NCBI GenBank assembly: GCA_965247485.1
Contig: OZ252017.1
Location: 837,664-901,663 of the forward strand
Source: Dehalococcoidia bacterium
GTDB lineage: Bacteria > Chloroflexota > Dehalococcoidia > DSTF01 > WHTK01
Direction of reading: 5' to 3'
Length of the DNA: 64,000 nucleotides
Part shown: in pieces, positions 17,797 to 30,229 of the stretch
How positions within the stretch are numbered: position 1 is the stretch's first letter
Layout: each line of letters opens with the position of its first letter
Translations under genes and position numbers: made by a program
The notes under the pieces: generated by a model
Databases searched by the model: none
Seen by the model: the letters and a program-made list of their open reading frames with translations, nothing else
Told to the model about the DNA's origin: nothing

Positions 17797-17870
17797 GCGG
17801 CCAAGGTGTTGTGGTGGCATTCGTCCCTCCCACGGATGAGGCGGGGGTTCAATTCCCCCTGGCCGCTCCA
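17797..17870 (+). tRNA. tRNA, probably tRNA-Gly (anticodon CCC), 74 nt with encoded CCA; integration target of the downstream island
   Basis: Acceptor GCGGCCA/TGGCCGC, anticodon stem CGTCC/GGATG with loop CTCCCAC, T-arm GGGGG-TTCAATT-CCCCC, discriminator T, CCA; D-stem is weak (GTGT/GCAT), hence moderate confidence. Confidence 0.55.
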
Positions 17871-17871
17871 G
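17847..17871. repeat. attL core: 25-bp direct repeat GTTCAATTCCCCCTGGCCGCTCCAG (tRNA 3' end), identical copy at 30205-30229
   Basis: Exact 25/25 match between the two positions. Confidence 0.7.
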
Positions 17872-17919: not shown

Positions 17920-17947
17920 CTAGGGTTCTGACCGCCTATCTGACCGC

Positions 17948-19075
17948 CTAACCGTGAAAAAGCTTATCCATGACGCTTACAGCTTGCTCCTGGGCGCCCT
18001 CGATCACGTGAGCGTAAATGCGCAATGTAGTCGAGATGTCGCTGTGGCCGAGCAGCTCCGAAACCACCTTGACCGGGACACCCTGAGAGAGCAGAACGGT
18101 CGCCGCGGTGTGTCTCAAATCGTGAAATCTCATTCGTGGTAGGCCTGCCTTGTCAAGTAACGGATGCAGCCCGCGGCTTAGGACGTGGCTATTGTCTAGG
18201 GGCTTGCCGAGCGCGTTTGTGAATGCGAGCCCGTATTCTTTCCACGCGGCGCCGGCAAGTTGGCGCTGACTGGGTTGATTAAGTCGATGGGTTTCTAGGG
18301 CCTCGCAAGCGGTTGCCGATAGCCAAACTGTGCGGCGTGACTTCTGAGTCTTCGGCTGGCCAAACAGAGGCTCGCCACCTCTCACTGTGGTCAACGTGCG
18401 GCTCACCTGAACCCGTTGGCGCTCGGTGTCTATGTCGCTCCACCGCAAAGCTTGGAGCTCGCCGAGTCGAAGACCTGACGTTAGTGCGAGGACAAAGAAC
18501 GCCTCAAGGGGATGACCTCTCGCGGCCTCGAGAAGCTGACGGGCATCCTCCGGGCCCAGGTGTCTTTGCTCGCCAGTGCTGCGCCGCGGCGGCGTGACGA
18601 GCGATGCGACATTTCGCCCAACAAGGCCCAGGCGCTCGGCATCACGCAAGGCGACATGGAGAACGCCATGACAATGCGCCACGGTGGTTGCACTGACTCG
18701 CCTTCCAATGGAGGCATAGGCTGCTCGCAAATCGGCCGGCTGAAGCTTGGAAAGGACGCGCCTTCCGAGTGCTGGCCCAAGATGTAGACGGCAAAGTGTG
18801 TTGTAGCGGCGCCACGTTTCCGGCCGTAAATCGCCCTGCTTGCCCTCTAGCCAGCTCGACAAGTACGCGCCAACCAAGAGTTTGTCACCTAGCAACGGGA
18901 GATTATCGTCCTGGCGCTTCTGGGCGTCCCGGAGCTTTTTGGAGACCTCAATGCGAGTCTTGCCGAATAGTGACCGGCGCCGCCGTTTTCCCGTGCTGGG
19001 CAGCGTTAGAGTGGCCTCCCAGCGGCCGTCTGCACGGAGACGGATGCTGCCTTCGCCCTTACCTCTCCGAGTCAT
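17948..19075 (-). CDS. int: tyrosine-type site-specific integrase
   Basis: C-terminal catalytic region HDLRHTAATVLLSQGVPVKVVSELLGHSDISTTLRIYAHV (R..H..R..Y); adjacent to tRNA and att repeat. Confidence 0.9.
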   Translation of the reverse strand: MTRRGKGEGSIRLRADGRWEATLTLPSTGKRRRRSLFGKTRIEVSKKLRDAQKRQDDNLPLLGDKLLVGAYLSSWLEGKQGDLRPETWRRYNTLCRLHLGPALGRRVLSKLQPADLRAAYASIGRRVSATTVAHCHGVLHVALRDAERLGLVGRNVASLVTPPRRSTGEQRHLGPEDARQLLEAARGHPLEAFFVLALTSGLRLGELQALRWSDIDTERQRVQVSRTLTTVRGGEPLFGQPKTQKSRRTVWLSATACEALETHRLNQPSQRQLAGAAWKEYGLAFTNALGKPLDNSHVLSRGLHPLLDKAGLPRMRFHDLRHTAATVLLSQGVPVKVVSELLGHSDISTTLRIYAHVIEGAQEQAVSVMDKLFHG

Positions 19076-20198: not shown

Positions 20199-20456
20199 GT
20201 GACGACCGCTGCCCATCATCCCAACTTCGTAGAACGCGACGAGATCTTGCGCCTACATCCAGGGCCGTGGAAAAAGAGCGGCGCCTGGCAGATGGCCTTC
20301 TGCCCAGTTCTAGCGCACGGCGACGGCCAGAAGCATGGCGGCAGGGGTGGCGAGTCCCTCGGGCTCTCAGACAAGGGCGTGCTCTCCTGCTTTGCTGGCT
20401 GTGCCTTTCGTGATGTCATGGCAGCGCTGCGGGCGGGTGATCAGGCGATTCGATGA
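20199..20456 (+). CDS. primase CHC2-type zinc-finger domain protein (separate small ORF preceding Toprim gene)
   Basis: CPVLAHGDGQKH...SCFAGC resembles the DnaG CHC2 zinc-binding motif; GTG start; stop overlaps next start. Confidence 0.5.
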   Translation: MTTAAHHPNFVERDEILRLHPGPWKKSGAWQMAFCPVLAHGDGQKHGGRGGESLGLSDKGVLSCFAGCAFRDVMAALRAGDQAIR

Positions 20457-22288
20457 CACCTTTGGGCGCTAAGCCGACGAACTGGTATGGCGAGACGATC
20501 TCGGGCTGGTATGGATATCAAGATGAAGCTGGCTCGGTTCGGTTTGACGTTGCGCGAACGCCCAGCAAAGAGTTTCCTGTCTATCACCCGGAAGGCACGA
20601 AATGGGCCAAGGGGTACGGCGGTCGGCGAATCCTCTACCGACTCCCCGAACTATTAGAGGCAGATCCAGCCGAGCCGGTTCTCTTATGCGAGGGCGAGAA
20701 GGACGCTGACCGGGCCCGGGCCGAAGGGTTCACCGCCACCACTACGCCAGGCGGCGCCTGGGCGGCTGATCATTGCGACCTCGGGCCGCTCGTTAATAGA
20801 ACTGTCGCGATCCTCCCAGACAACGACGAAGGGGGTGAAAACTATAGCTCTACGTTAACGGGCCTACTCGTTGGCAAGGCCGCCTCGATCAAGGTCATTG
20901 ACCTAACCGGCGTTCCGCCAAAAGGCGACGTTAGTGATTGGTTCGACGCCGGGCATGGCTCTGAGGAACTGAAGCAGTTGATCGGGCAACAAACGCCGGT
21001 AACACCCGTTTCTCCTCCGCAGCCTTCCACCTCGCAATCAACTACGTTGCTATTCCGGACGCCGCGACAAATCGCCCAACTCACACCCGAAACCCCAGAC
21101 GCGGTGGTCGCAGGCATCCTTGTAAGAGGCGCAATGACGGAAGTCAGCGCCAAAATCAAGACCGGCAAGACGACCTTCATGGGGCACTTAATCGCTGCTG
21201 TTCGCTCTGGGCACGACTTCTTAGGCTTGAAAACAAAACGCACAGCTTTTGTTGTGCTTACTGAGGAGCGAATTCAAACAATGCGAGCGGCCCTAGGGCG
21301 CGTCGGCCTTCTAGATGCGGACGATGTCCACATTCTCTCTCTGTACGACGCTGGCAAGCTCCCATGGCCCGACATAGTTGCCGAGGCGGAGAAATATGCC
21401 AAGGAGGTTGGCGCCGGCGTTATCGTCGTGGATACGCTTACTCGCTGGGCGCGCATTCCAAGCGATGATGAGAACAGCTCTGGCGCCGCGGCTGAAGCTA
21501 TTGAGCCCTTGGAGGCGGCAGCTGCTCATGGGTTCGCAATCCTTGTTATCCGTCACGACCGAAAAAGCGGAGGTGAGCTAGGAGACAGCGCTCGCGGGTC
21601 GTCAGCATTCGGTGGTGCTGCCGACATCATCCTCAACCTTCGCAGAGCGAATACCGAAGGCCATGAAAGTCGCCGGATATTACTAGGCGTCGGGCGCTTT
21701 GATGACGTTCCGTCTCAACTGACTATCGAGCTTCAAGCCGGCCGCTACGTAGTTCTTGGCGACACTGCCGCCATAGAACGTGACGAAACAAAGAGCCGAC
21801 TCCTGGACGTTTTGCCAGGTGTAAGCGGAGACCCTATTCGAGAGGATGATGTTCTTGCGCGGCTTGGCACTGAAGCAAAGAGATCAACTGTTCGGCGCGC
21901 CCTCAATGACCTGGTCGCGAATGCGTCCGTTGAACGAGTCTCCGGACTTGGGACGCGAGGCACTGCGAAAGGCTATCGCTTAGGCTCCCGTTACTCTACT
22001 GACCAGCCTATAGAGATGGACCCTGGTCAGAAGACTAACTCTCACGTTCCTGAAAGTAACGTGGATTACTTTAGTGACCAGCCCCATACCCCTGGTCAGA
22101 AACATAGTCCCCTACTCAACGGAAACTCTACTGACCAGCCCCCATTTCCTATAGGTGGTCAGTTGGGTAAGAACGACCTTTGCACAGAGCTTGGGTGTGA
22201 ACGTCCCGGTACTCACGCCAATCCAACCGATGGTGAGCTCGTTTGTCTGTATCACTTCACGCGGATGACCGCTGAGGTTGCGTCGTGA
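20453..22288 (+). CDS. Toprim-domain DNA primase fused to RecA-like (AAA_25/RepA-type) helicase domain; repeat-rich C-terminal tail
   Basis: Toprim motifs LCEGEKDADRA and ILPDNDEGG; Walker A KTGKTT, Walker B VIVVDTL; C-terminal STDQP/PGQK repeats and a Cys-rich tail. Confidence 0.8.
   Translation: MTPLGAKPTNWYGETISGWYGYQDEAGSVRFDVARTPSKEFPVYHPEGTKWAKGYGGRRILYRLPELLEADPAEPVLLCEGEKDADRARAEGFTATTTPGGAWAADHCDLGPLVNRTVAILPDNDEGGENYSSTLTGLLVGKAASIKVIDLTGVPPKGDVSDWFDAGHGSEELKQLIGQQTPVTPVSPPQPSTSQSTTLLFRTPRQIAQLTPETPDAVVAGILVRGAMTEVSAKIKTGKTTFMGHLIAAVRSGHDFLGLKTKRTAFVVLTEERIQTMRAALGRVGLLDADDVHILSLYDAGKLPWPDIVAEAEKYAKEVGAGVIVVDTLTRWARIPSDDENSSGAAAEAIEPLEAAAAHGFAILVIRHDRKSGGELGDSARGSSAFGGAADIILNLRRANTEGHESRRILLGVGRFDDVPSQLTIELQAGRYVVLGDTAAIERDETKSRLLDVLPGVSGDPIREDDVLARLGTEAKRSTVRRALNDLVANASVERVSGLGTRGTAKGYRLGSRYSTDQPIEMDPGQKTNSHVPESNVDYFSDQPHTPGQKHSPLLNGNSTDQPPFPIGGQLGKNDLCTELGCERPGTHANPTDGELVCLYHFTRMTAEVAS
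21994..22165. repeat. three imperfect copies of palindromic unit CT(A/G)(C/T)TGACCAGCC-N7-14-CCTGGTCAGAA inside the primase-helicase gene 3' end (candidate replication-origin iterons)
   Basis: CTGACCAG / CTGGTCAG inverted arms at 21998-22030, 22075-22100, 22131-22162. Confidence 0.5.
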
Positions 22289-22938
22289 ACCGCCAGGAGA
22301 GGCGCCGGGCGGGCAAAGCCGACAAGGGCCTCACAGAGAAGCTACGCGCTGAGCTACCCGGTATTCTCGGCTGGGCTGTGCGTGGGTGCCTTGAATGGCA
22401 ACGGCGTGGCCTCGAGCCGCCGGCCTCTATACAAGCAGCGACCGACGACTATCGCACTGAGAGCGATCCTTTAGCGGGCTTCCTCGCTGAGTACTGCGTT
22501 CTTGGTGACGGGCTGGCATCACCAGCCAACCCGCTGTACAAGGCCTACGCCCGGTGGGCGGCTGATCAAGGTTATCGCGACCGCGAATTGCTCACGAGCA
22601 CGGCATTTGGGCGGCTGGCGGGGAGTCGTTTCGACAGTGGCCGGAGCCGCGCCGGGAAGGTTTATTACGGCCTAGGTCTCTTAAATGCACAGCAAAGTGA
22701 TCTAAAGGTGACGGGTTTCACGTCTGACGACCCGTCACTTCCACTAAACCTTCCTATGTATTCACCTACGCGAGATTTGTTAGAAAACTCGTCACAACCC
22801 GTCACACCCGTCACAGAGGAAAACGAGCTCTGCACTCAGGCCAATTGCGACCTTCCGGGCACCCACGCCGAGCCAACTACTGGCGAACTTGTTTGCCTTG
22901 CCCACTTCCAGAAATTGGCTTCAGAGGTGACGTCGTGA
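22285..22938 (+). CDS. phage/plasmid primase P4-family C-terminal domain protein (D5/PriCT-like)
   Basis: Conserved pattern GILGWAVRGCLEWQRRGL...TDDYRTESDPLAGFLAEYC; ends with same Cys-rich tail as preceding gene. Confidence 0.6.
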   Translation: MNRQERRRAGKADKGLTEKLRAELPGILGWAVRGCLEWQRRGLEPPASIQAATDDYRTESDPLAGFLAEYCVLGDGLASPANPLYKAYARWAADQGYRDRELLTSTAFGRLAGSRFDSGRSRAGKVYYGLGLLNAQQSDLKVTGFTSDDPSLPLNLPMYSPTRDLLENSSQPVTPVTEENELCTQANCDLPGTHAEPTTGELVCLAHFQKLASEVTS

Positions 22939-23068
22939 ACCGTGAAAATCGGTGGCTCATGATGAGGGGGAAGGGGCCCTCGGATACTTCTCAGATATGG
23001 AAACGAACACCGCTACCCTACCACTCCTCGCACGCGGTCAGGTTTCAACCAAGGGGGGTTCAGCCTTA

Positions 23069-23545
23069 ATGGGTTCTCGCGGACCTTCGCCAAAGCCCAC
23101 AGCACTAAAGGCCTTGCATGGCACCGCTCGTCGCGACCGGAGCAATCCAAGCGAGCCTCAGCCGCAGGTCACCGCCGTTTCTTGTCCCGCGTTCCTAGAC
23201 TCCGCGGCGAAGGCAGAGTGGCGCCGGCTCATCCCGCACCTGGTCAAGTTGAAACTCATGAGCGATCTAGACCGGGGCCTCCTCGCTGCCTATTGCGCGG
23301 CCTGGAGTCGCTGGCGGAAGGCGGAGCTTGCGATCCAGAAGTTCGGTGAGGTCTTAGCGACGCCAAGCGGGTATATGCAGAAGAACCCTCACGTGACGAT
23401 TGCCAACGAATCAATCAGAACGCTCGAGAAACTGGCGGGGCACTTCGGTCTGTCGCCATCCACAAGGACGCGGGTTAGCGCCACACCAGAGGAGCAGGAG
23501 GACGATCCATTCGATGAATGGGAGCAGCGAAGGAGGTCGAGGTGA
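23069..23545 (+). CDS. terS: phage terminase small subunit, P27 family
   Basis: GPSPKPTALKALHGT...AKAEWRRLIPHLVKLKLMSDLDRGLLAAYCAAWSRW...NPHVTIANESIRTLEKLAGHFGLSPSTRTR matches the P27 TerS pattern; ATG 23069 preferred. Confidence 0.8.
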   Translation: MGSRGPSPKPTALKALHGTARRDRSNPSEPQPQVTAVSCPAFLDSAAKAEWRRLIPHLVKLKLMSDLDRGLLAAYCAAWSRWRKAELAIQKFGEVLATPSGYMQKNPHVTIANESIRTLEKLAGHFGLSPSTRTRVSATPEEQEDDPFDEWEQRRRSR

Positions 23546-23937
23546 TAAGGGCCATGATCGAACCGCTAACCGAAACCCCACCGCCGCCGGACTTCATCGG
23601 TAACCGAGATGCGGAGTGGGTGCGCGACTGGCACACACTCGCCGGAAAGCTCGTCGCATCGCGCACCTTGGCCGAGCTGGACCTAGTAATGCTCTGCCTG
23701 CTTATCGACGCTTGGCAGATCTACAGCCGCGGCCTTCGAGACATCGCCCGTTATCCAGAGCCAGAAGGCCTAAGGGAATCAATCGAAGAATGGCGGCTTC
23801 ACGCTCGCCAAGCCGCCAGTGAGTTTTTTCTTATACCTGAATCGCGAATCAATTTAGGAATCGTGGCCGACGCCGGCGGAGACAGCGAGTTATCGGCCCT
23901 TTTTCGAGAGAACAACGACGAATCAATCACGCAATAG
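23518..23937 (+). CDS. hypothetical protein with weak TerS-like helical pattern (second small-terminase-like/packaging-interference candidate)
   Basis: DAEWVRDWHTLAGKLVASRTLAELDLVMLCLLIDAWQIY mirrors the P27 A..EW..L...L..L.D...L...AW spacing. Confidence 0.35.
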   Translation: MGAAKEVEVIRAMIEPLTETPPPPDFIGNRDAEWVRDWHTLAGKLVASRTLAELDLVMLCLLIDAWQIYSRGLRDIARYPEPEGLRESIEEWRLHARQAASEFFLIPESRINLGIVADAGGDSELSALFRENNDESITQ

Positions 23938-24689
23938 CGGGCCGTAGGCCCGCCCAGTCAAGGGAGGAAAGACGATGGCAGCCACAGCGATTCAGGAAAT
24001 TAGCAAAAACGCGAAAGTCGACTACTGGCAGAACGATCATCCCTACGAGGTGGTTCGCATCGAGCCGTGAATTCCTGGACGAAATTGACTCATGATTATT
24101 CCTCGAGCATTTGAGGGCACATGGCTTGAGCCAGAGGAGCCTGCCTGGCGACCTGGAGACCCTTTCCCTGCGCCGTGGATACGTGAGGAATCGGAGAGAT
24201 GGTTAAGAAACTAATCAGCGAGAGCACCTCGCCAAGTTGAAGATGGTGACTGTTTTTGGTACGCCGAAAGCCCATAACTGGACAACTTACGCTCTGTTTA
24301 GAGTGAGTCTACAGCTGTGAATCGCCCGCCGCTTAGTAGCGTAGGCTTGGAAGGCAGATCGCACCGTGCGCTGTAGCAGCGTATCTAGGACCGTGAGCGA
24401 GAGCTGTCCAGTTATGGTGTGAAAGTTCTTGGGATTTTCTCCTACGCGATGCGGCGCCGTCCGGCGACCATGCTAAGAAGCCATGCAGTCAACGAAACCC
24501 TTGCCGACCCGCAGTTTGTCCGCGCCAATCCCAGGCTATCAATGCCTTAATCTCCACGGTCGGGACCTAAACTGTCCAAATTCTTACGGCCCTCGACCTG
24601 AACAGCGATGGCGCTGAGATTGACGAAGAGGACCGCCAATAGGCCACAGCAAGTCAGATTCGTGGTCGTGTATGAGGCGGGAAAGGATG

Positions 24690-24810
24690 GTTTGCCGGAA
24701 GGAGGCTCGAACCCCCAAGGCCTCGCGGGCGGCGGATTTTAAGTCCGCAGACGATAGGTTACTGACGTGTACTACCGTCCGCCCACGATGCGATTTGGTA
24801 GGCTTTCGGC
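24690..24810 (-). pseudogene. tRNA-Leu(TAA)-like remnant with ~30-nt insertion in the D-arm region (pseudo-tRNA)
   Basis: On minus strand: anticodon arm GCGGA-CTTAAAA-TCCGC, long variable arm, T-arm GGGGG-TTCGAGC-CTCCT, acceptor GCCGAAA/TTCCGGC with one mismatch; total about 120 nt, too long for an intact tRNA. Confidence 0.3.
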
Positions 24811-24981
24811 CGCCTACGTCCTGCGTCGGTTGAGGTTGTCCGTCCCGGTTGCTGTCTAATTTGCTGTCATTGCTCAATGCCGATGGCCCGCTACCGCTTG
24901 CCACCCACTTCATTCGGAGCGTCGCAAGTAGGTCGTTGTCGTTGCGACATTGCCTAGTATCAGCTGATCTCGTTCAGAAAG

Positions 24982-26034
24982 ATGCCGTACACGACAATGA
25001 TGAGAAGGCGGGGACGATACGGAGTCCCAATGCAGACGTACGGGTCGATCATCCCAGGCGGTCCAACCCTGGCTCGTCTCCTCCCAGAGGGAGCGCAGGA
25101 AGGCAGGGAGGAGCCACGACTATCACGTGAGGCGAAGGCGCGCCTCAGGGCTGTTGAGTGGCACAAGGATCACGGCGAGAAGGTGAGTCTGACGGCAAGA
25201 CGCTTTGGACGCAGCCGCTCAACCCTTTACTAGTGGCTAGAGTGCTACCGGCTCCGGGGTCCGCGGGGTCTGGAAGACCGCAGCCATAGGCCACACCAGG
25301 TCCGCAAGCCGACTTGGAGCCTAGAGTTCGAAGCAGCGGTGCTACGCCTGCGCCAAGACAATCCCGTCTGGGGCAAAGACAAGCTACAGCCGATCCTCAG
25401 ACGCGAAGGGGTCACTATCTCGGTCTCGATTGTGGGCCGCATCCTTAGCCGGCTCAGACGCCAAGGCAAACTGGGGCCTGCGAGTCTGAAGGACCCTTGC
25501 ATCGTCTCTCGGCCTCAGGTGCGGCCCTATGCCGTGCGTGAGCCCAAAGACTACGTCGTCAAGGCGCCGGGAGATCTGGTTCGGTGGACAGCGCCGACGT
25601 GCGCTGGACCGGTATTACCTGGCGCGTGATATTGTCAGCCGCTGGGACGTCTTGGGTGTCTACGGCCGCGCTACCGCCGGCACGGCGCGCGACTTCCTCG
25701 ATACGGTCATCGAGCGTATGCCGGGTCCGGTGAAGGCGATCCAGGTGGACGGTGGCTCTGAGTTCAGGGCCGAGTTTGAGGCCGCCTGTGAGCAGAAGGG
25801 GCTGCGGCTTTTTGTGCTGCCACCATGCTCCCCCAGGCTCAACGGCTGCGTGGAACGAGCCCAGCGCACCCACAAAGAGGAGTTTACCAGTTGGTTGACC
25901 CACCCGACTCGCTCAGCCAACTGAGAACCCAGCTGCTCCAACAGGAGCAGCGTTACAATACTTACCGGCCCCATCAGGCCCTTGGCCATCTAACGCCGCA
26001 AGAGTGGCTGCTAGCATTCACCGAGAGGAAGTAA
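24982..26034 (+). mobile_element. degraded IS481-family insertion sequence (transposase ORF split into at least 4 frames)
   Basis: HTH piece (24982-25233), LRLRQDNPVWGKDKLQPILRREG piece, DDE/rve core (DGGSEFRAEF...LPPCSPRLNGCVERAQRTHKEEF) and C-terminal YNTYRPHQALGHLTPQEWL piece in different frames. Confidence 0.7.
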
Positions 26035-26102
26035 GTGTCCGGCATCTACTGGACGAGTACAAGCACTTGCGCCTTCCAAACCGTCGCCCTACACTAATTG
26101 CA

Positions 26103-26129
26103 TTAGCACTCGCTTTAGCCGAGTGCTAA
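26103..26129. promoter_or_regulatory. CIRCE operator (HrcA binding site), perfect consensus TTAGCACTC-N9-GAGTGCTAA
   Basis: TTAGCACTC (26103-26111), 9-nt spacer, GAGTGCTAA (26121-26129); 40 bp upstream of groES. Confidence 0.85.
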
Positions 26130-26170
26130 ACTACGATAAAGCCTGAATTTATCCCCACGAGGAGGTCAGA

Positions 26171-26467
26171 ATAGCTTCGAGACTAATCCCTCTTGCCGAC
26201 AAGCTTGTTCTTAGGCCGATTGTCCAGGAGGAAGTCCTCTCCAGCGGAATCGTCATTCCAGACACCGCCAAAGAAAAGCCTAACCAGAGCGAAATCATCG
26301 CCGTGGGTCCAGGAAAGCGCGACGAGGACGGCAAAGTGATCATCCCGGAGGTCGTGATTGGTGACCGAGTGCTTTACGCCAAGTACACCGGCCAAGAGAT
26401 CAAGGTAGAAAATGAAGAGCTAATCGTTCTAGCGGAGAAAGATATCCTCTGCAAGGTCGAAGTCTAA
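26171..26467 (+). CDS. groES: co-chaperonin GroES (10 kDa chaperonin); apparent ATA start codon 5 nt after GGAGG
   Basis: Translation (I)ASRLIPLADKLVLRPIVQEE...GIVIPDTAKEKPNQSEIIAVGPGKRDEDGKVIIPEVVIGDRVLYAKYTGQEIKVENEELIVLAEKDILCKVEV; not in ORF track because no ATG/GTG/TTG start. Confidence 0.75.
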   Translation: MASRLIPLADKLVLRPIVQEEVLSSGIVIPDTAKEKPNQSEIIAVGPGKRDEDGKVIIPEVVIGDRVLYAKYTGQEIKVENEELIVLAEKDILCKVEV

Positions 26468-26491
26468 GTCCGCCCGCGTTAGGAGGGTCTA

Positions 26492-26551
26492 TTGGCAAAA
26501 CAAATCGTTTTTGATGAAGAGGCGCGTCGCTCACCGAAGGGTGAATCGTGA
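26492..26551 (+). pseudogene. groEL: groEL 5' remnant: 19 codons (L/M)AKQIVFDEEARRS... then unrelated sequence and stop
   Basis: AKQIVFDEEARR is the conserved GroEL N-terminus; RBS AGGAGGG upstream; TTG start; reading frame terminates at 26549-26551. Confidence 0.6.
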
Positions 26552-26769
26552 GTAATCACACAGGCCTTCAGTACGAAGGATACATTCAAGAAACAGGGTT
26601 CGGGATAAGTGAACTAGTACCGAGCGCCAACGAAACCATGGAAGACATTGTGTCGGCTTTAAAGGCTGCTGCAGAACGCCTCAAGCTTCACGTCCTTATT
26701 TGGGTGGATGAAGACAGGATTCTGCTTGCGTGTCCGCCTCCTGCCTTTGCCGGCATGCAGAGAAGTTAG
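26548..26769 (+). CDS. hypothetical small protein (73 aa), lower-GC cargo
   Basis: ORF only; non-repetitive composition. Confidence 0.25.
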   Translation: MSNHTGLQYEGYIQETGFGISELVPSANETMEDIVSALKAAAERLKLHVLIWVDEDRILLACPPPAFAGMQRS

Positions 26770-27728
26770 TAATCCTCAACGCGCCACCACACCTAAAGCC
26801 GAAAGGAGAAGAGGGCCTCCACGAGATGGCCCGCAGGATACGTTTTCGAAGCTGACGATTCGCGAGGCGTTCTGCGGACCTCTAGGAACCGGCAGGTTTT
26901 GCAACGATTTGGAAAATGAGGCTGGTTGCACTAAGACTTCGGCGCCAGACGACTTTCTTGCCTTGGCTCGATGCAGCAAGGGATGTCCGTCTCTTAATCG
27001 CTCGTTGAGAATCATCCTCGCTCAGGTCGATGGCTCCCCAATCGCCAACTTTAAGGGAACCTAAATATTCCAAGTACTCAGTGAGATCCTGGAGGTTAGT
27101 ATGCCTTCGCGTAAGATGACTAACTTCTGCATCAGACAGCTTCCTAAAATTTGGCATTGAAGTATCCCTCCAAGCTAATTCGTGGGTGCTCCACAGGAGC
27201 CCTATTGGATGCTAATCATAGGCCAAATTAGACGTCAAGCGTATACTCATTTTACTCCTGCTCTTTATTTCGACTATATTGTTATCGTAAGGGAATATGC
27301 ATTAGGCAGCAAGTGGGAAGCTCTCGCCGTGACAATGCATGATGCCCGCTCGTGGCACGAGACGCATAACGCCTAATGGCCCCTCCAGATTCCAAGTCAG
27401 GACCGAAACTGAAACAGCCGGTGGGGATCCAAGAGATCGGTCGGCGGCTGGCATTTGGGCCCCCGGGATACTTCCTAGGCTCGCTATCTGAGTGCGGGTG
27501 TTGGCCCGTAAAGAACATTCGCTAGCATCTGACCGCCACTGGTTTCTTCGAACCTCGTCAGACCGTTTGACTTGGAATCTTGAACCAACCTCTCAAACCA
27601 TCCAAGATATTGTCAGCAGAGTACGAGTCTTAGTCTTCGCTAACTGCATTCGCCAATGAGCTAAAAGAGAGATTCTTTGGTAGACTAATTCGAACCGTAT
27701 ATAGCCAATTGCAAAGACCGCTACCTAT

Positions 27729-28517
27729 TTGAGCAAGTTGAACTATATGCAGCAGACACGGAGAGTATTCGCTATGGAGCACCTTCTACCTTCTGAAGAC
27801 ACAGCCCGAGATCGACTATGTGTAGCGCTCGACTTGGCGGGAAGAGCTGACATTTCTCGGTGTATTTCAGAACTCGCAGATTTAGTCGGTTATTTTAAGG
27901 TAAATTCTGCATTTGCTCTGTACGGTCGTAGCCTGATCGAAGAAATATCCGAAGCTGGGGCCAAAGTTTTTCTCGATTTGAAACTCCATGACATTCCACA
28001 TGCTGTATCTGGATATGCAGATGCAGTCACTCGATTGGGAGTCGATTTAGTAACGGTTCACATCGCTGGCGGTACCCACATGCTTAAAGAACTTGTCAGA
28101 ACAGCAGATGACACAGCTAAAGAACTTGGAGTCAAGCGACCATTATTCATCGGTGTCACAGTCCTGACTAGTGTTGACAAGAGTATTCTCAACTCTGAGA
28201 TGAACATCAGGGGCGATGTTCGTCAGGAGGTGGCAAGAAGAGCCTTCTTAGCCGCGAAATCAGGACTCGATGGCATCGTCTGCTCTGCCGAAGACTTACA
28301 TTTCGTGAAGGGTGACCTACCCGAGGACTTCTTCTATGTAACACCGGGGATACGTGGTCTCAATGAGGAATCTCAAGACCATAAACGAGTTCTCTCCTAC
28401 GGGGAATCGGTTCAGGCAGGAGCAAGCTTGCTAGTTGTGGGCCGGGCGATCGTATCTGCTCCAGCCAGACGCGATGCGGCTTCCAAAATCCTGAGTGAAA
28501 TGACAGTGGAGGTCTGA
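27729..28517 (+). CDS. orotidine 5'-phosphate decarboxylase (PyrF type 1)-family protein, island cargo
   Basis: Hallmark motifs VALD...KVFLDLKLHDIPHAV, VTVH, VTVLTS, CSAED, VTPGIR, VVGRAI; lower GC than flanking chromosome. Confidence 0.8.
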   Translation: MSKLNYMQQTRRVFAMEHLLPSEDTARDRLCVALDLAGRADISRCISELADLVGYFKVNSAFALYGRSLIEEISEAGAKVFLDLKLHDIPHAVSGYADAVTRLGVDLVTVHIAGGTHMLKELVRTADDTAKELGVKRPLFIGVTVLTSVDKSILNSEMNIRGDVRQEVARRAFLAAKSGLDGIVCSAEDLHFVKGDLPEDFFYVTPGIRGLNEESQDHKRVLSYGESVQAGASLLVVGRAIVSAPARRDAASKILSEMTVEV

Positions 28518-28518
28518 G

Positions 28519-29097
28519 TTGGACTTCTCTCGCAAACCAGTCATTGGCTGCATCCACCTTCTGCCGACTCCAGGCTCTCCAGAATACGATGGTGACATGG
28601 CAAGGGTGTCCAATCTTGCACTCGAGGAAGCCGCCATTCTCAGAAGGTGCGGCGTCGACGCGCTCATTGTTGAGAACTTCCGGGACGGACCCTTCTTTCC
28701 AGAAGCTGTTCCAGTAGAGACGGTCGCCGCTATTTCAGGTGTCGCCCGCGAGATCGTGATGACAGGGGACGTACCCGTAGGTATAGCCGTTCTTCGCAAT
28801 GACGCCGAAGCCGCGATAGCGATAGCAACGGCAGTAGGCGCACAGTTCGTTCGTATAAACGTGCATATAGGCGCCGTGCTCGCGGAGCAAGGAATCGTTC
28901 AGGGCCGAAGTTTCGCGAGTATGCGATTACGGGCTAATCTACGCTCAAATGTTGCGATTTGGGCTGATGCGCGGGTCAAGCACTCCTTCCCTTTCGTATA
29001 TTCGAGTATCTCACAGGAGATTCGTGATCTAAACGGAAGAGCAGACGCAATTCAGCCCTGCGGTCCGCACTGGGCGCCTCTAAAGGCATCGCACTGA
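28519..29097 (+). CDS. BtpA/SgcQ-family (TIM-barrel) protein, C-terminally truncated relative to family (192 aa)
   Basis: PVIGCIHLLPTPGSPEY N-terminal motif and ADARVKH typical of BtpA; family members are usually about 260 aa; possible frameshift near 29065. Confidence 0.5.
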   Translation: MDFSRKPVIGCIHLLPTPGSPEYDGDMARVSNLALEEAAILRRCGVDALIVENFRDGPFFPEAVPVETVAAISGVAREIVMTGDVPVGIAVLRNDAEAAIAIATAVGAQFVRINVHIGAVLAEQGIVQGRSFASMRLRANLRSNVAIWADARVKHSFPFVYSSISQEIRDLNGRADAIQPCGPHWAPLKASH

Positions 29098-29279
29098 ATG
29101 AAGACGCCGGCATTGCGTTAAAGGCACTGCTGGAGGCCCCCTTAGCTCGTCAGGCCCTTGTACGCCGCCACGTCGAACTCCTCCACAATCGGGGAAGAAT
29201 GGCTGCCGGCAGTCCTGATTCTTTTAGAGGCTGAAGAGAAGCAGGCAGAGGCGGAGCGGCTGGACGCAGAGGGCTCGCT

Positions 29280-29585
29280 ATGACTGCTAGTCAACCCACC
29301 GAGACTTTCATCGTTCACGTACAGGACACTGAGACTATGCAGCTCCTCCAGTACCAGGTCGACTTCGGCGCGGCTACCGCAATTCGGGAATTATGCCGGG
29401 CATTGCAGGGTGTAGGCCGGGCTCAAGCCTCCGATGTGGGTGAGGCTCCCGTGACCACTCAGGAGCTTCTCCAGCTCCACGTTGAGGCTCTCCTGACGGT
29501 CCCCGAAGAATGGCTGGAATCGGCGCTGATCCAACTGGAGTCATGGGCCAAGATCGCCGGCGACTACCAGCCAGACACGGGCTAA
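29280..29585 (+). CDS. hypothetical acidic protein (101 aa)
   Basis: ORF with decent codon periodicity; no motif. Confidence 0.35.
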   Translation: MTASQPTETFIVHVQDTETMQLLQYQVDFGAATAIRELCRALQGVGRAQASDVGEAPVTTQELLQLHVEALLTVPEEWLESALIQLESWAKIAGDYQPDTG

Positions 29586-29647
29586 GGCCAGGCGTATAGT
29601 CGAAGGAATGACCGCGGGCGAAAACAAGACAGGCCTAATGAGACAAA

Positions 29648-29962
29648 ATGGACACGCCAAAGGAGTTCCCAGAAGAGCTGCTGCCATATCTGGAGCAGTT
29701 GGCGTCTGAGGACCGAGAGCGCCTGCTCGCAGAATTCGAGCGCGACATTCACGTAGAAGAGGCAAGGGCTCTAACGGGCGACAAGCTGGCGAACGAACTA
29801 GAGCGGCTGATAGCTATGGTGAAACTGCTCTCGCTCTTGAAGAAGCAAGAGGGCCCGGAAGCGCTCCGGTTGTTTAGTGATCGCGTCGGACTTTTACCGG
29901 GGCAGCTTGAGGCTCGGCTTAATGACCTCGACGACATTGAGCATATATGGGATGCGCAATAG
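29648..29962 (+). CDS. hypothetical acidic helical protein (104 aa)
   Basis: Glu/Leu-rich, predicted helical; no motif. Confidence 0.35.
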   Translation: MDTPKEFPEELLPYLEQLASEDRERLLAEFERDIHVEEARALTGDKLANELERLIAMVKLLSLLKKQEGPEALRLFSDRVGLLPGQLEARLNDLDDIEHIWDAQ

Positions 29963-30204
29963 GGCCCCCAGGGGACCTCGAAAACCTTAGAGCAAACGGC
30001 CTTGGAACCGCTGGCGAACCACTTTCCGGCTATTTATGAATTCCAAATGTTTTTAGAAAAGGTTTGCAGTGCCCACTTTCGCCACCTTTTGACCGCCTAT
30101 CTGACCGCCAGACGCAGCGGAACTATGCGGTCTCTAGCGGCCTAGATGGTAGAATCTGAATCTAGATGCGGCCCTTAGCGGTTTTGAGCGGAGCCTTAGA
30201 GGAA

Positions 30205-30229
30205 GTTCAATTCCCCCTGGCCGCTCCAG
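30205..30229. repeat. attR core: second copy of 25-bp direct repeat GTTCAATTCCCCCTGGCCGCTCCAG
   Basis: Exact match to 17847-17871. Confidence 0.7.

What the first reader, a model, noticed from the sequence alone, without database searches (positions are those of the whole stretch)
21994..22940. Iteron-like palindromic repeats inside the primase-helicase 3' end and a duplicated Cys-rich C-terminal tail shared by two consecutive primase-module proteins
(a) Three imperfect units CT(A/G)(C/T)TGACCAGCC-N7-14-CCTGGTCAGAA occur at 21998-22030, 22075-22100 and 22131-22162; CTGACCAG and CTGGTCAG are reverse complements. In protein they appear as STDQP...PGQK repeats, but their hairpin/iteron character and location at the end of the rep gene resemble satellite/P4-type replication origins embedded in the replication-protein gene. 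(b) The last 35-40 residues of the helicase gene (...LCTELGCERPGTHANPTDGELVCLYHFTRMTAEVAS) and of the next gene (...LCTQANCDLPGTHAEPTTGELVCLAHFQKLASEVTS) are clearly homologous. Both genes end with the identical 13-nt string TCGTCGTGAACCG, in which the stop TGA overlaps a GTG start. This looks like a duplicated C-x4/5-C...C..HF zinc-ribbon-like module, possibly a shared interaction/oligomerisation tail, or a footprint of a recombinational module swap.
Basis: seen in the sequence. Interest (0 to 1): 0.5.

Follow-up and report, generated by a model that had tools for sequence, protein, structure and literature searches.

The report
Two replication origins inside replication genes
The repeats are very probably the replication origin of a small integrated mobile element, written into the end of its own primase-helicase gene; the next gene is a leftover of a second, unrelated replication module with its own origin and an old copy of the same cysteine-rich tail, which makes this a clear new example of a known principle rather than a new principle.

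Summary
Both observations are real. (a) Three inverted-repeat units (TCTnCTGACCAG / CTGGTCAGnAGA) lie at 21990-22168, just after the winged-helix domain (WHD) of a T7-gp4-like primase-helicase. Relatives only 35-50% identical carry 1-3 such units at the same place. Arm sequences differ between relatives, and a recognition-helix residue changes with them. Some units lie in other reading frames or after the stop codon, so the constraint is on the DNA. Best reading: an iteron origin (ori-1) bound by the protein's own WHD, as in SaPI Rep-ori; here the ORF reads through it. This is inferred, not shown.

(b) The two 39-aa C-x4-C...C-x2-H tails are true homologs: BLASTP E=6e-15; 59% amino-acid identity; third codon positions nearly randomised. 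The duplication is therefore old and under protein-level selection. The shared string is 12 nt, not 13, and is not significant by itself.

New: gene 2 is only the last ~130 aa of a P4/D5-type primase. Its "linker" is that family's typical origin (ori-2, ACCCGTCAC iterons around an AT-rich spacer), matching 80 relatives and the annotated origin of Lactobacillus phage A2. The island thus holds two WHD+origin+tail cassettes, which looks like a module-recombination footprint. Tail function is unknown.

The parts
17797..17871 (+). tRNA-Gly(ccc) with attL core (17847-17871), the left end of the integrated island
   Evidence: ARAGORN. The 25-nt direct repeat recurs at 30205-30229.
17948..19075 (-). 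Tyrosine integrase
   Evidence: Pfam Phage_integrase, E=3e-29.
20199..20456 (+). Separate 85-aa CHC2-type primase zinc-binding domain; its stop overlaps the next start (ATGA)
   Evidence: The motif CPxxxH...CFAGC is visible in the translation. The domain is fused to the primase in homologs.
20453..22288 (+). 611-aa primase-helicase. Toprim primase about residues 4-186; RecA-type SF4 helicase about 197-436; winged helix 438-510; disordered linker 518-575; Cys tail 576-611
   Evidence: Pfam AAA_25 and GntR-like. AF2 model, mean pLDDT 86.6. Foldseek best hits are T7 gp4 (E=8e-16) and Twinkle.
21764..21982 (+). Winged-helix domain (H-H-H plus beta wing), the proposed origin-binding domain
   Evidence: AF2 elements H438-453, H464-471, H477-489, E493-499, E505-510, pLDDT above 90. 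The recognition-helix residue co-varies with the arm class across homologs.
21990..22039 (.). ori-1 unit 1: TCTACTGACCAG - 16 nt (CCTATAG...) - CTGGTCAGAAGA
   Evidence: Inverted repeat I5, 17-nt arms, 88% complementary.
22063..22110 (.). ori-1 unit 2: TTTAGTGACCAG - 10 nt - CTGGTCAGAAAC
   Evidence: Inverted repeat I6.
22125..22168 (.). ori-1 unit 3: TCTACTGACCAG - 16 nt (...CCTATAGG) - TGGTCAGTTGGG; a mirror image of unit 1
   Evidence: Inverted repeats I10 and I1.
22172..22288 (+). Tail 1: NDLCTELGCERPGTHANPTDGELVCLYHFTRMTAEVAS, then the stop
   Evidence: AF2 pLDDT 70-78.
22285..22938 (+). Gene 2 (217 aa). Residues about 6-142 are the extreme C-terminal domain of a P4/D5-type primase-helicase; the rest is ori-2 read through, then tail 2
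   Evidence: Pfam Pox_D5, 24.7 bits against a cut-off of 21.4. phrog_6088 positions 642-765 of 772. Its 24 database relatives end right after this domain. PDB profile hits to ASFV C962R and poxvirus D5, and weakly to an RFX winged helix.
22708..22814 (.). ori-2: GTGACGGG (22708-22715, minus orientation); CCCGTCAC (22731-22738); AT-rich spacer containing TACGCGAG (22739-22787); CTCGTCAC, CCCGTCAC, CCCGTCAC (22788-22814)
   Evidence: Same iteron and same offsets as relatives L220, L146 and L180. Same layout as the annotated rep_origin of phage A2.
22822..22938 (+). Tail 2: NELCTQANCDLPGTHAEPTTGELVCLAHFQKLASEVTS, then the stop
22935..23069 (+). Possible 44-aa ORF that links tail 2 (GTGA overlap) to TerS (TAATG overlap)
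   Evidence: inference only.
22952..23545 (+). Terminase small subunit (P27 family); the true start is probably 23069
   Evidence: Pfam Terminase_4, E=1e-28. phrog_83. Translation.
23518..23937 (+). Second, diverged TerS-like gene
   Evidence: Pfam Terminase_4, E=1.5e-5.
30205..30229 (+). attR core (repeat of the tRNA-Gly 3' end)

Best explanation
Proposed mechanism. The island at tRNA-Gly encodes a T7-gp4-like primase-helicase that is also its own initiator. Its C-terminal winged-helix domain binds the three inverted-repeat units encoded just downstream (ori-1, 21990-22168). Opposed arms would position helicase rings in both orientations around a locally A+T-richer stretch, from which the element is unwound, primed by the Toprim domain and copied by host polymerase. 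In this lineage the ORF does not stop before the origin. It reads through it, so the origin DNA encodes a disordered linker that joins the WHD to a small Cys3-His tail.

Gene 2 is not a normal partner protein. It is the 3' end (WHD region) of a P4/D5-type primase-helicase from another replication module, together with that module's own origin (ori-2, 22708-22814), again read through into a diverged copy of the same tail. The simplest history is recombination or deletion between two related islands that shared the tail-orf44-TerS region to the right of the origin. The junction would lie a few codons after the first tail's GTGA.

Shown: the repeats and their family-wide conservation at the DNA level; the domain identities; the homology of the tails and the purifying selection on them; the truncation of gene 2; the match of ori-2 to the layout typical of its family.

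Inferred: that the WHD binds the units; that either site fires as an origin; the recombination history; any role of the tail. My best guess for the tail is a zinc-binding module that contacts DNA or a common partner.
For: Position and enrichment in the gp4-like family.
- The units start about 10 nt after the confidently modelled WHD, and the linker they encode has pLDDT below 50.
- Among 61 non-redundant homologs with 90-500 nt after the WHD, 30% have at least 4 copies of one 7-mer, against 0.5% of upstream in-gene windows (Fisher p=4e-15) and 0.08% of codon shuffles.
- 79% of these tails have at least one 7-mer inverted pair 12-40 nt apart, against 33% of upstream windows.

The units are homologous across the family but their sequences vary.
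- Arm classes include GGnCAGAAA, CTGGTCA, CTGTCCA, CTGWWCAG and TCGGAYGAA.
- The recognition helix follows the class: RSTxQRA with GGnCAGAA; RSTx(R/K)R with CTGnnCA; Rxxx(Y/H)E with TCGGAYGAA.

The constraint is on DNA.
- Units occur after the stop codon (L018, L033, L055) or in other reading frames.
- In short-tail homologs they span or follow the stop.
- Between L016 and L114 the arms are conserved, synonymous sites included, while the upstream coding DNA differs at third positions.

Other support for ori-1.
- G+C is lower in this segment than in the gene (0.60 against 0.65; 54 of 61 loci; p=7e-9).
- Copy number varies: a paralog has 2 units.
- The units travel with the helicase, not with TerS: no TerS homolog was found in any other locus, whereas integrases were found in 52 loci.

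Known parallels.
- SaPI Reps bind iterons through a C-terminal WHD. Those iterons lie just downstream of rep, in opposite orientations around an AT-rich centre (PMC9371898).
- N15 initiates replication within repA (PMC2847241).

ori-2.
- 62% of 55 P4/D5-type relatives have at least 4 iterons within 300 nt after the homologous domain, against 2.9% of control windows.
- The iterons form opposed sets around spacers of 46% G+C, against 60% for the loci.
- L220, L146 and L180 use the same ACCCGTCAC iteron.
- The phage A2 record annotates a rep_origin with this layout, starting 27 nt before the primase stop.

Tails.
- E=6e-15.
- Identity by codon position is 27, 32 and 17 of 39.
Against: No experiment, and no direct binding or replication data, exist for this family.

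Spacing between arm starts varies (19-25 nt in the window, 18-31 nt in relatives). This is loose for a rigid dimer site.

The A+T enrichment of ori-1 is modest (minimum about 40% G+C over 30 nt), and there is no long AT tract.

Most units of the GGCAGAA class are read in one frame (19 of 26), so some protein-level constraint on the linker cannot be excluded.

The recognition-helix/arm correlation is confounded by phylogeny.

ori-2 in the window has only one left-hand iterons in minus orientation plus one extra plus-orientation copy, so it may be decayed.

The tail has no homolog outside this lineage among 1.84 billion representative proteins, nor in any of 222 related loci. That limits inference about its function. 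It also makes it odd that two unrelated initiator families would each carry it.
Confidence: 0.65

Rival explanations
1. The units are cis sites for a DNA-binding protein with a non-replicative role. Candidates are a packaging (pac) site for the adjacent TerS proteins, a partition or centromere-like site, or an operator for the island's HTH regulator.
For: Two TerS genes lie about 800 nt downstream. Palindromic repeats are typical of many protein-binding sites. N15 also has centromere sites inside repA (PMC2847241).
Against: The units keep their position next to the WHD in relatives where no TerS homolog was detected. No partition genes were seen in the island. The arms co-vary with the adjacent WHD recognition helix. 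A site at the 3' end of a gene is an unlikely operator position.
Confidence: 0.12
2. The inverted repeats act as RNA hairpins in the mRNA, affecting stability, processing, translational pausing or termination, rather than as DNA sites.
For: The region folds far better than shuffles as RNA (-71.9 kcal/mol, z=-6.5). Some relatives have the unit just after the stop codon, where terminators sit.
Against: All units within one element share the same arm sequence, and the arm family is conserved across distant relatives. Independent hairpins do not need this. Stems are about 8-12 bp with 10-18-nt loops and no U tract; the terminator scan found nothing on the + strand here. In long-tail genes the units lie upstream of a translationally coupled gene. 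The spacer motif CCTATAG is conserved.
Confidence: 0.08
3. The repeats are a protein-level repeat (STDQP...PGQK linker motif), and the DNA symmetry is incidental.
For: The repeats are in frame. Most GGCAGAA-type units in relatives are read in the same frame (19 of 26).
Against: The left and right arms encode different peptides yet are reverse complements. Units occur untranslated or in other frames. The encoded segment is predicted disordered. Inverted pairs are enriched against codon shuffles that keep amino-acid content.
Confidence: 0.03
4. Gene 2 is a working regulator or adaptor, not an inert remnant. It would be an origin-binding-domain-only protein that binds ori-2 and, through the shared tail, either recruits the gp4-like helicase or a common partner to ori-2, or blocks replication of competing P4-type elements or phages that use ACCCGTCAC iterons.
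For: The ORF is intact, with an SD-like GAGG 8 nt upstream and a GTGA overlap. The WHD region is complete up to the family's usual C-terminus. ori-2 has all the family hallmarks. Tail 2 keeps every ligand position.
Against: No ortholog of this fusion exists beyond an identical copy, so selection on gene 2 as such cannot be measured. The divergence of the tails may have happened before the fusion. None of 142 related gp4-like loci has such a gene.
Confidence: 0.12

Closest known systems
SaPI/PICI Rep-ori modules (Staphylococcus aureus pathogenicity islands; PMC9371898)
   Same: A self-loading initiator-helicase, sometimes fused to a primase, has a C-terminal winged-helix domain. Short repeated sites lie immediately downstream, point in opposite directions and flank an A+T-richer centre. 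The element is a small integrase-bearing island with TerS.
   Different: The helicase here is RecA-type SF4 (gp4/Twinkle-like), not an AAA+/SF3-clade helicase. The sites are 1-3 long inverted-repeat units, not two opposed sets of 5-6-nt iterons. The ORF runs through the origin into a further domain. Binding and replication are untested.
Phage lambda O protein and ori-lambda (own knowledge, not checked in the paper library)
   Same: The origin consists of repeated sites with dyad symmetry. It lies inside the initiator's own gene, in the part that encodes a flexible inter-domain linker, and is bound by the initiator's own DNA-binding domain.
   Different: Lambda O is not a helicase or primase; it recruits host DnaB through P. 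Its DNA-binding domain is N-terminal. There is no sequence relationship.
N15/PY54 RepA (linear plasmid prophages)
   Same: A multifunctional primase-helicase-type initiator; bidirectional replication starts within the repA gene itself (PMC2847241, Fig. 1 legend).
   Different: RepA is P4-alpha-like (primase plus SF3 helicase). I recall, from memory of Ziegelin et al. 2005 (not held in the library), that the PY54 origin lies in the 3' part of repA. The site architecture was not compared here.
P4-family primase genes followed by their origin, for example Lactobacillus phage A2 ORF35 and its rep_origin
   Same: Gene 2's domain is 43% identical to the A2 primase C-terminus. A2's annotated rep_origin starts 27 nt before that gene's stop. 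It consists of ACGGGAGGAT x4, an AT-rich stretch, then ATCCTCCCGT x4. ori-2 has the same layout and a similar ACGGG core.
   Different: In the window the primase-helicase body is missing and only the last ~130 aa remain. The ORF continues through the origin into a Cys tail that no relative has.
T7 gp4 / Twinkle (SF4 primase-helicases)
   Same: The fold and domain order, Toprim primase then RecA-type hexameric helicase, are shared (Foldseek E=8e-16). The N-terminal zinc-binding domain is of the same type but is a separate ORF here.
   Different: gp4 has no origin-binding WHD, and T7 origins are promoter-driven. The WHD, linker and tail are additions. Sequence identity is about 15%.

Membership tests
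Iteron origin next to a self-loading initiator-helicase (SaPI/PICI-type rep-ori) | The initiator carries helicase motifs and a C-terminal winged-helix domain | tested here: met
   AAA_25, E=6e-18; GntR-like wHTH. AF2 gives H-H-H plus a wing at residues 438-510, pLDDT above 90. GKT Walker A motif is invariant.
Iteron origin next to a self-loading initiator-helicase (SaPI/PICI-type rep-ori) | Repeated short sites lie immediately downstream of the WHD or rep coding end, in both orientations | tested here: met
   Six arms at 21990-22168, alternating in orientation. The same position is used in relatives.
Iteron origin next to a self-loading initiator-helicase (SaPI/PICI-type rep-ori) | An A+T-rich unwinding region lies between opposed sites | tested here: inconclusive
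   ori-1: G+C dips to 0.40-0.43 between units, against 0.58 for the gene; the family-wide dip is 0.60 against 0.65, p=7e-9. There is no long AT tract. ori-2: a 49-nt AT-rich spacer is present.
Iteron origin next to a self-loading initiator-helicase (SaPI/PICI-type rep-ori) | The initiator binds the sites specifically and the fragment supports replication | not testable with these tools
   The only indirect evidence is co-variation of the recognition helix with the arm class.
SF4 (T7 gp4/Twinkle/DnaB-type) primase-helicase | Toprim primase domain followed by a RecA-type helicase core | tested here: met
   Foldseek top 14 hits are T7 gp4 and Twinkle, E from 8e-16 to 7e-12. phrog_239 DNA primase/helicase, E=2e-25.
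SF4 (T7 gp4/Twinkle/DnaB-type) primase-helicase | N-terminal zinc-binding domain fused to the primase | tested here: not met
   The CHC2-type domain is a separate 85-aa ORF (20199-20456) overlapping by ATGA. It is fused in homologs.
P4/D5-family primase-helicase (gene 2) | C-terminal Pox_D5 / P4-primase C-terminal domain | tested here: met
   PF03288, 24.7 bits against a cut-off of 21.4. phrog_6088, 1829 and 1156, E from 1e-27 to 4e-25, at the extreme C-terminus of the profiles.
P4/D5-family primase-helicase (gene 2) | D5_N and P-loop SF3 helicase core, and a primase domain | tested here: not met
   Gene 2 starts about 10 residues before the C-terminal domain. No P-loop or primase part is present. 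Gene 2 is therefore a fragment, not a member enzyme.
P4-family primase-associated origin (ori-2) | Tandem iterons in opposed sets around an AT-rich spacer, starting at the end of the primase gene | tested here: met
   Window 22708-22814. 62% of 55 relatives have this layout, against 2.9% of controls. Spacers are 0.46 G+C against 0.60 for the loci. Phage A2 has an annotated rep_origin of this kind. The window's left-hand set is reduced to one minus-orientation copy.
Zinc ribbon / zinc-knuckle (the tails) | Four conserved metal ligands in two knuckles | tested here: met
   C-x4-C-x15-C-x2-H is conserved in tail 1, tail 2, P0001 and P0146. Similar C-terminal CC...C(H/C) tails occur in about 4% of relatives.
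Zinc ribbon / zinc-knuckle (the tails) | Match to a curated zinc-ribbon family, or a confident fold | tested here: inconclusive
   No Pfam hit even at E up to 10. AF2 pLDDT is 70-78, with two short strands and a C-terminal helix. A single-sequence model was poor. Metal binding is not testable here.
Phage satellite of PICI type (the island as a whole) | Integrase, excisionase/regulator, primase-rep with an adjacent origin, TerS, and no capsid or tail genes | tested here: inconclusive
   Integrase, HTH_17, primase-helicase and two TerS genes are present. No structural genes were seen up to attR. The right half holds transposase fragments and metabolic genes. Helper dependence and induction are not testable.

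The most novel reading that the evidence does not exclude
The Cys3-His tail is a portable docking module that lets origin-binding domains of unrelated initiator families use one replication or packaging partner. On this reading the OBD-only gene 2 protein sits on ori-2 and recruits, through the tail, the gp4-like primase-helicase or a shared partner. One helicase could then fire from two origins of different specificity. Alternatively, gene 2 blocks rival P4-type elements that use the same iteron. More generally, origin DNA that doubles as a disordered inter-domain linker would be a recurrent design in gp4-like initiators, joining the WHD to zinc ribbons or even to a family-A polymerase.
Probability: 0.1. 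Interest if true: 0.6.

Novelty: new variant of a known kind. Interest (0 to 1): 0.45.

Why it matters
It gives a concrete, testable origin and origin-binding domain for a large uncharacterised family of gp4-like primase-helicases. The family has more than 1,100 database relatives, mostly on integrase-bearing elements of Chloroflexota, Acidobacteriota and other uncultured lineages. No full-length homolog was found among sequenced phages or plasmids.

The rule "look right after the winged helix" held in two unrelated initiator families. It could be used to annotate origins, and possibly replication-specificity groups, in mobile elements from metagenomes, and to build replicons for organisms with few genetic tools.

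The finding is also a caution. Peptide "repeats" in C-terminal linkers of replication proteins can be by-products of DNA sites. A short ORF after a rep gene can be a recombination remnant that still carries an origin.

Tried and rejected
- Fetching the DNA of the paralogous copy (P0001) and of the identical gene 2 (P0121) with the look-up of encoding contigs failed: they are not on record. The second island in the same genome could not be examined.
- A profile of the two tails against 1.84 billion representative proteins found only this lineage plus one spurious eukaryotic repeat protein.
- A relaxed HMM search of all ORFs in 222 related loci found no tail homolog and no free-standing small gene of that kind.
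- Pfam gave nothing for the tails.
- A single-sequence AF2 run on residues 443-611 was uninformative, pLDDT 52.
- Profile-profile comparison found no homology between the WHD region of gene 1 and the D5_C domain of gene 2. The duplicated part is therefore the tail, with weak similarity in the linker, and not the whole C-terminal half.
- The pac-site idea was rejected because no TerS homolog was found in any related locus.
- The idea that the 12-nt identity marks something special was rejected: p is about 0.16. It overlaps an SD-like GAGGT and the GTGA stop/start, and NTGA overlaps are common in the family.
- No internal att remnant was found that would prove a tandem-island origin.
- Literature searches found no description of this gp4-like+WHD family or of its origin.


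Full report
CONTEXT

The finding lies in an island integrated at tRNA-Gly(ccc) (17797-17870). A 25-nt repeat of the tRNA 3' end marks attL (17847-17871) and attR (30205-30229). The left half of the island encodes, in order:
- a tyrosine integrase;
- a 256-aa protein of unknown function;
- an HTH_17/excisionase-like protein;
- a free-standing 85-aa CHC2 zinc-binding domain;
- the 611-aa primase-helicase (20453-22288);
- the 217-aa gene 2 (22285-22938);
- two P27-family small terminase genes.

No structural phage genes were seen. The right half holds transposase fragments and metabolic genes. The element therefore looks like a satellite-type integrative island. I did not test that membership fully.

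CHECK OF THE OBSERVATION

The three units are at the stated coordinates. Each is an inverted repeat: TCTnCTGACCAG, then 10-16 nt, then CTGGTCAGnAGA. Units 1 and 3 are also mirror images of each other, spacers included. Exact copies of the 12-mer occur nowhere else in the 64 kb.

The tails align with E=6e-15. Over 39 codons they share 59% of amino acids and 65% of bases. Identities at codon positions 1, 2 and 3 are 27, 32 and 17. The duplication is therefore old, and both copies evolved under selection on the protein.

One detail is wrong. The shared terminal string is 12 nt (CGTCGTGAACCG), not the 13-mer quoted. A run of that length is expected in about 16% of shuffled alignments.

WHAT THE 611-AA PROTEIN IS

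An AlphaFold2 model built on 73 homologs is confident (mean pLDDT 86.6) from residue 4 to 517. It shows a Toprim primase, a RecA-type helicase and a classic winged helix at residues 438-510. Residues 518-575 have pLDDT below 50. The last 36 residues reach 70-78. Foldseek's best solved matches are T7 gp4 and Twinkle. The protein is thus an SF4 primase-helicase with an added C-terminal WHD. The disordered stretch is exactly the part encoded by the repeats.

THE REPEATS ARE A CONSERVED DNA ELEMENT OF THE FAMILY

I fetched 142 loci that encode relatives, 31-53% identical by best tblastn segment and mostly from Chloroflexota, Acidobacteriota and soil metagenomes. I examined the DNA after the WHD.

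Enrichment
- Of 61 non-redundant genes with 90-500 nt after the WHD, 30% have at least 4 copies of one 7-mer, counting both strands. The figure is 0.5% for same-length windows upstream in the same genes (Fisher p=4e-15) and 0.08% for codon shuffles.
- 79% of these genes have at least one inverted 7-mer pair 12-40 nt apart, against 33% of upstream windows.

Arrangement
- The copies alternate in orientation and form 1-3 units, as in the window.
- Once oriented, the arms are recognisably related across the family: cGGCAGAAAgnAA, GGTCAGAAAC, CTGGTCAGAAGA. They fall into classes.

The constraint is on the DNA
- The two arms encode different peptides.
- Units occur after the stop codon (L018, L033, L055) or in other reading frames. 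In short-tail genes they span or follow the stop.
- In the pair L016/L114 the arms are identical through synonymous sites, while the upstream coding DNA shows ordinary third-position divergence.

Further features
- The segment has lower G+C than its gene in 54 of 61 loci.
- Spacers often carry CCCTATAG next to the right arm: 15% of units against 0.5% background. Window units 1 and 3 have it.
- In some relatives a single palindrome with 12-15-nt arms sits in the linker between the WHD and a fused 3'-5' exonuclease/family-A polymerase. Reading through the element into another domain is therefore recurrent.

WHO BINDS THE UNITS

The units always follow the WHD. No TerS homolog was found in any related locus, whereas integrases are common. 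The fifth residue of the recognition-helix motif changes with the arm class:
- RSTxQRA with GGnCAGAA;
- RSTx(R/K)R with CTGnnCA, which includes the window (RSTVRRAL);
- Rxxx(Y/H)E with TCGGAYGAA.

The wing motif changes too: GDPYRY against GRAFGY. This fits recognition by the WHD, but shared ancestry confounds it.

The layout is that of SaPI Rep-ori modules. There a C-terminal WHD binds iterons placed immediately downstream of rep, in opposite orientations around an AT-rich centre, and the helicase loads itself (PMC9371898). An origin inside the initiator gene is known for N15 RepA (PMC2847241) and, from my own knowledge, for lambda O.

I therefore read 21990-22168 as the island's origin (ori-1). 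The RNA-hairpin, pac-site/operator and protein-repeat readings are the weaker rivals.

GENE 2 IS A REMNANT WITH ITS OWN ORIGIN

Residues about 6-142 match only the extreme C-terminus of P4/D5-type primases: phrog_6088 positions 642-765 of 772, and PF03288. Its 24 non-identical database relatives are fragments or C-terminal parts of such enzymes. All of them end right after this domain, with no linker or tail. None of the 142 gp4-like loci has such a gene.

I noticed a second repeat set in gene 2's "linker": GTGACGGG at 22708, CCCGTCAC at 22731, and three tandem copies at 22788-22814. I then fetched 80 viral contigs with relatives of this domain.
- In the 300 nt after the domain, 62% of 55 non-redundant loci have at least 4 copies of one 7-mer, against 2.9% of 890 control windows.
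- The typical layout is about three tandem iterons in one orientation, a spacer of 50-90 nt, then about three in the other orientation, beginning at the stop codon.
- The spacers are A+T-rich (0.46 against 0.60) and often contain (T)ACGCG. The window's spacer has TACGCGAG.
- L220, L146 and L180 use the same ACCCGTCAC iteron at similar offsets.
- In Lactobacillus phage A2 the primase C-terminus is 43% identical to gene 2. The deposited record annotates a rep_origin that starts 27 nt before the primase stop. It consists of ACGGGAGGAT x4, an AT-rich stretch, then ATCCTCCCGT x4.

So 22708-22814 is a P4-family origin (ori-2). The body of its cognate helicase is missing. Here too the ORF runs on through the origin into a Cys tail.

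THE TAILS

The four ligand positions (C-x4-C-x15-C-x2-H) are conserved in both tails and in two related proteins. These are P0001, a paralog in the same 3.06-Mb genome that has only two units, and P0146, from another genome.

No other homolog exists among 1.84 billion representative proteins or in the 222 related loci. Pfam gives no hit. Different C-terminal CC...C(C/H) tails occur after the linker in about 4% of relatives. The fold is plausible as a zinc knuckle followed by a helix, but it is not established.

Both tails end in an SD-like GAGGT, 6 nt, then GTGA. This is a coupling signal, and such overlaps are common in the family. After tail 2 a 44-codon ORF bridges to the probable TerS start (TAATG).

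MOST LIKELY HISTORY (INFERENCE)

Two related islands differed in their replication module, one gp4-like and one P4-like. They shared the region to the right of the origin: tail, small ORF, TerS. A deletion or illegitimate recombination joined the sequence just after the first tail's GTGA to the interior of the P4-type gene. Gene 2 thereby borrowed the start signal of the small ORF.

This history accounts for four things: the truncation of gene 2; the two different origins; the old divergence of the tails; and the end of homology a few bases past the stop. I could not test it, because the paralogous island's DNA was not retrievable and no internal att remnant exists.

VERDICT

The principle, iterons next to the WHD of a self-loading initiator, is known.

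What is new:
- the family (SF4 gp4-like plus WHD, absent as a full-length protein from sequenced phages and plasmids);
- the palindromic-unit architecture with a conserved spacer motif;
- the translation of the origin as an inter-domain linker;
- the tandem arrangement of two origin cassettes with a lineage-specific tail.

Interest is moderate.

Noticed in passing
window 20199-20456 and 20453: The primase's CHC2 zinc-binding domain is a separate 85-aa ORF whose stop overlaps the start of the 611-aa ORF (ATGA). In homologs the domain is fused. This is either a split gene kept by translational coupling or a frameshift.
   Followed up: partly
window 17929-17948 and 30090-30109: An exact 20-nt repeat, TGACCGCCTATCTGACCGCC, lies just inside both island ends. 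It contains an internal TGACCGCC / CTGACCGCC duplication. These are probably integrase arm-type sites.
   Followed up: partly
window 24000-30200: The right half of the island holds broken HTH/DDE transposase pieces (24982-26034), a GroES C-terminal fragment (26303-26467), an OMP-decarboxylase/HUMPS-family gene (27729-28517) and a BtpA-family gene (28519-29097). This is cargo or decay, not phage-like.
   Followed up: partly
window 22935-23071: A 44-codon ORF starts at the GTGA of tail 2 and ends in TAATG at the probable true TerS start (MGSRGPSPKPTALK...). This gives a chain of coupled genes: gene 1, gene 2, orf44, TerS. Two TerS-like genes follow in tandem (22952/23069-23545 and 23518-23937).
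   Followed up: partly
window 22008-22014 and 22149-22156; loci L034, L083, L092, L109, L121, L136 and others: The spacers of the gp4-like family's palindromic units carry a conserved CC(C)TATAG next to the right arm: 15% of inverted-repeat units against 0.5% background. The units are therefore asymmetric, not pure palindromes. Its role (melting or priming site?) is unknown.
   Followed up: partly
window 22767-22774; loci L143, L146, L165, L166, L175, L220: The AT-rich spacers of P4/D5-type origins often contain (T)ACGCG(T/C)G: 17 of 42 against 21% background. The window's ori-2 has TACGCGAG.
   Followed up: partly
L082, L086-L088, L091, L093, L098, L109 (about 50-120 nt after the WHD): Some relatives are primase-helicase-WHD proteins fused to a 3'-5' exonuclease and family-A DNA polymerase. 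The joining linker is encoded by a single perfect palindrome with 12-15-nt arms, for example ATTCGTCCGAGAC-N13-GTCTCGGACGAAT.
   Followed up: partly
proteins P0001, P0146, P0148 (no DNA available): The same 3,064,122-bp genome holds a second, 5'-truncated copy of the primase-helicase (P0001; 84% BLASTP identity to the window protein over the aligned 74% of the query) with two units instead of three. Another genome (3,032,360-bp contig) has a frameshifted copy with three units.
   Followed up: partly
L005, L019, L067, L073, L100, L102, L114, L122 (gene after the primase-helicase): Many relatives have a small, translationally coupled downstream gene with the motif LxxLxxRGVxLxxDGDxLxxxAP. In the window gene 2 occupies this slot.
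   Followed up: no
L041 and L134 (gene after the primase-helicase): Downstream HNH-endonuclease-like genes start with a C-x4-C...C-x2-H motif (for example CLEHGCPTLTGRSRCPAHQ) that resembles the window's tails. No significant sequence similarity was found.
   Followed up: no
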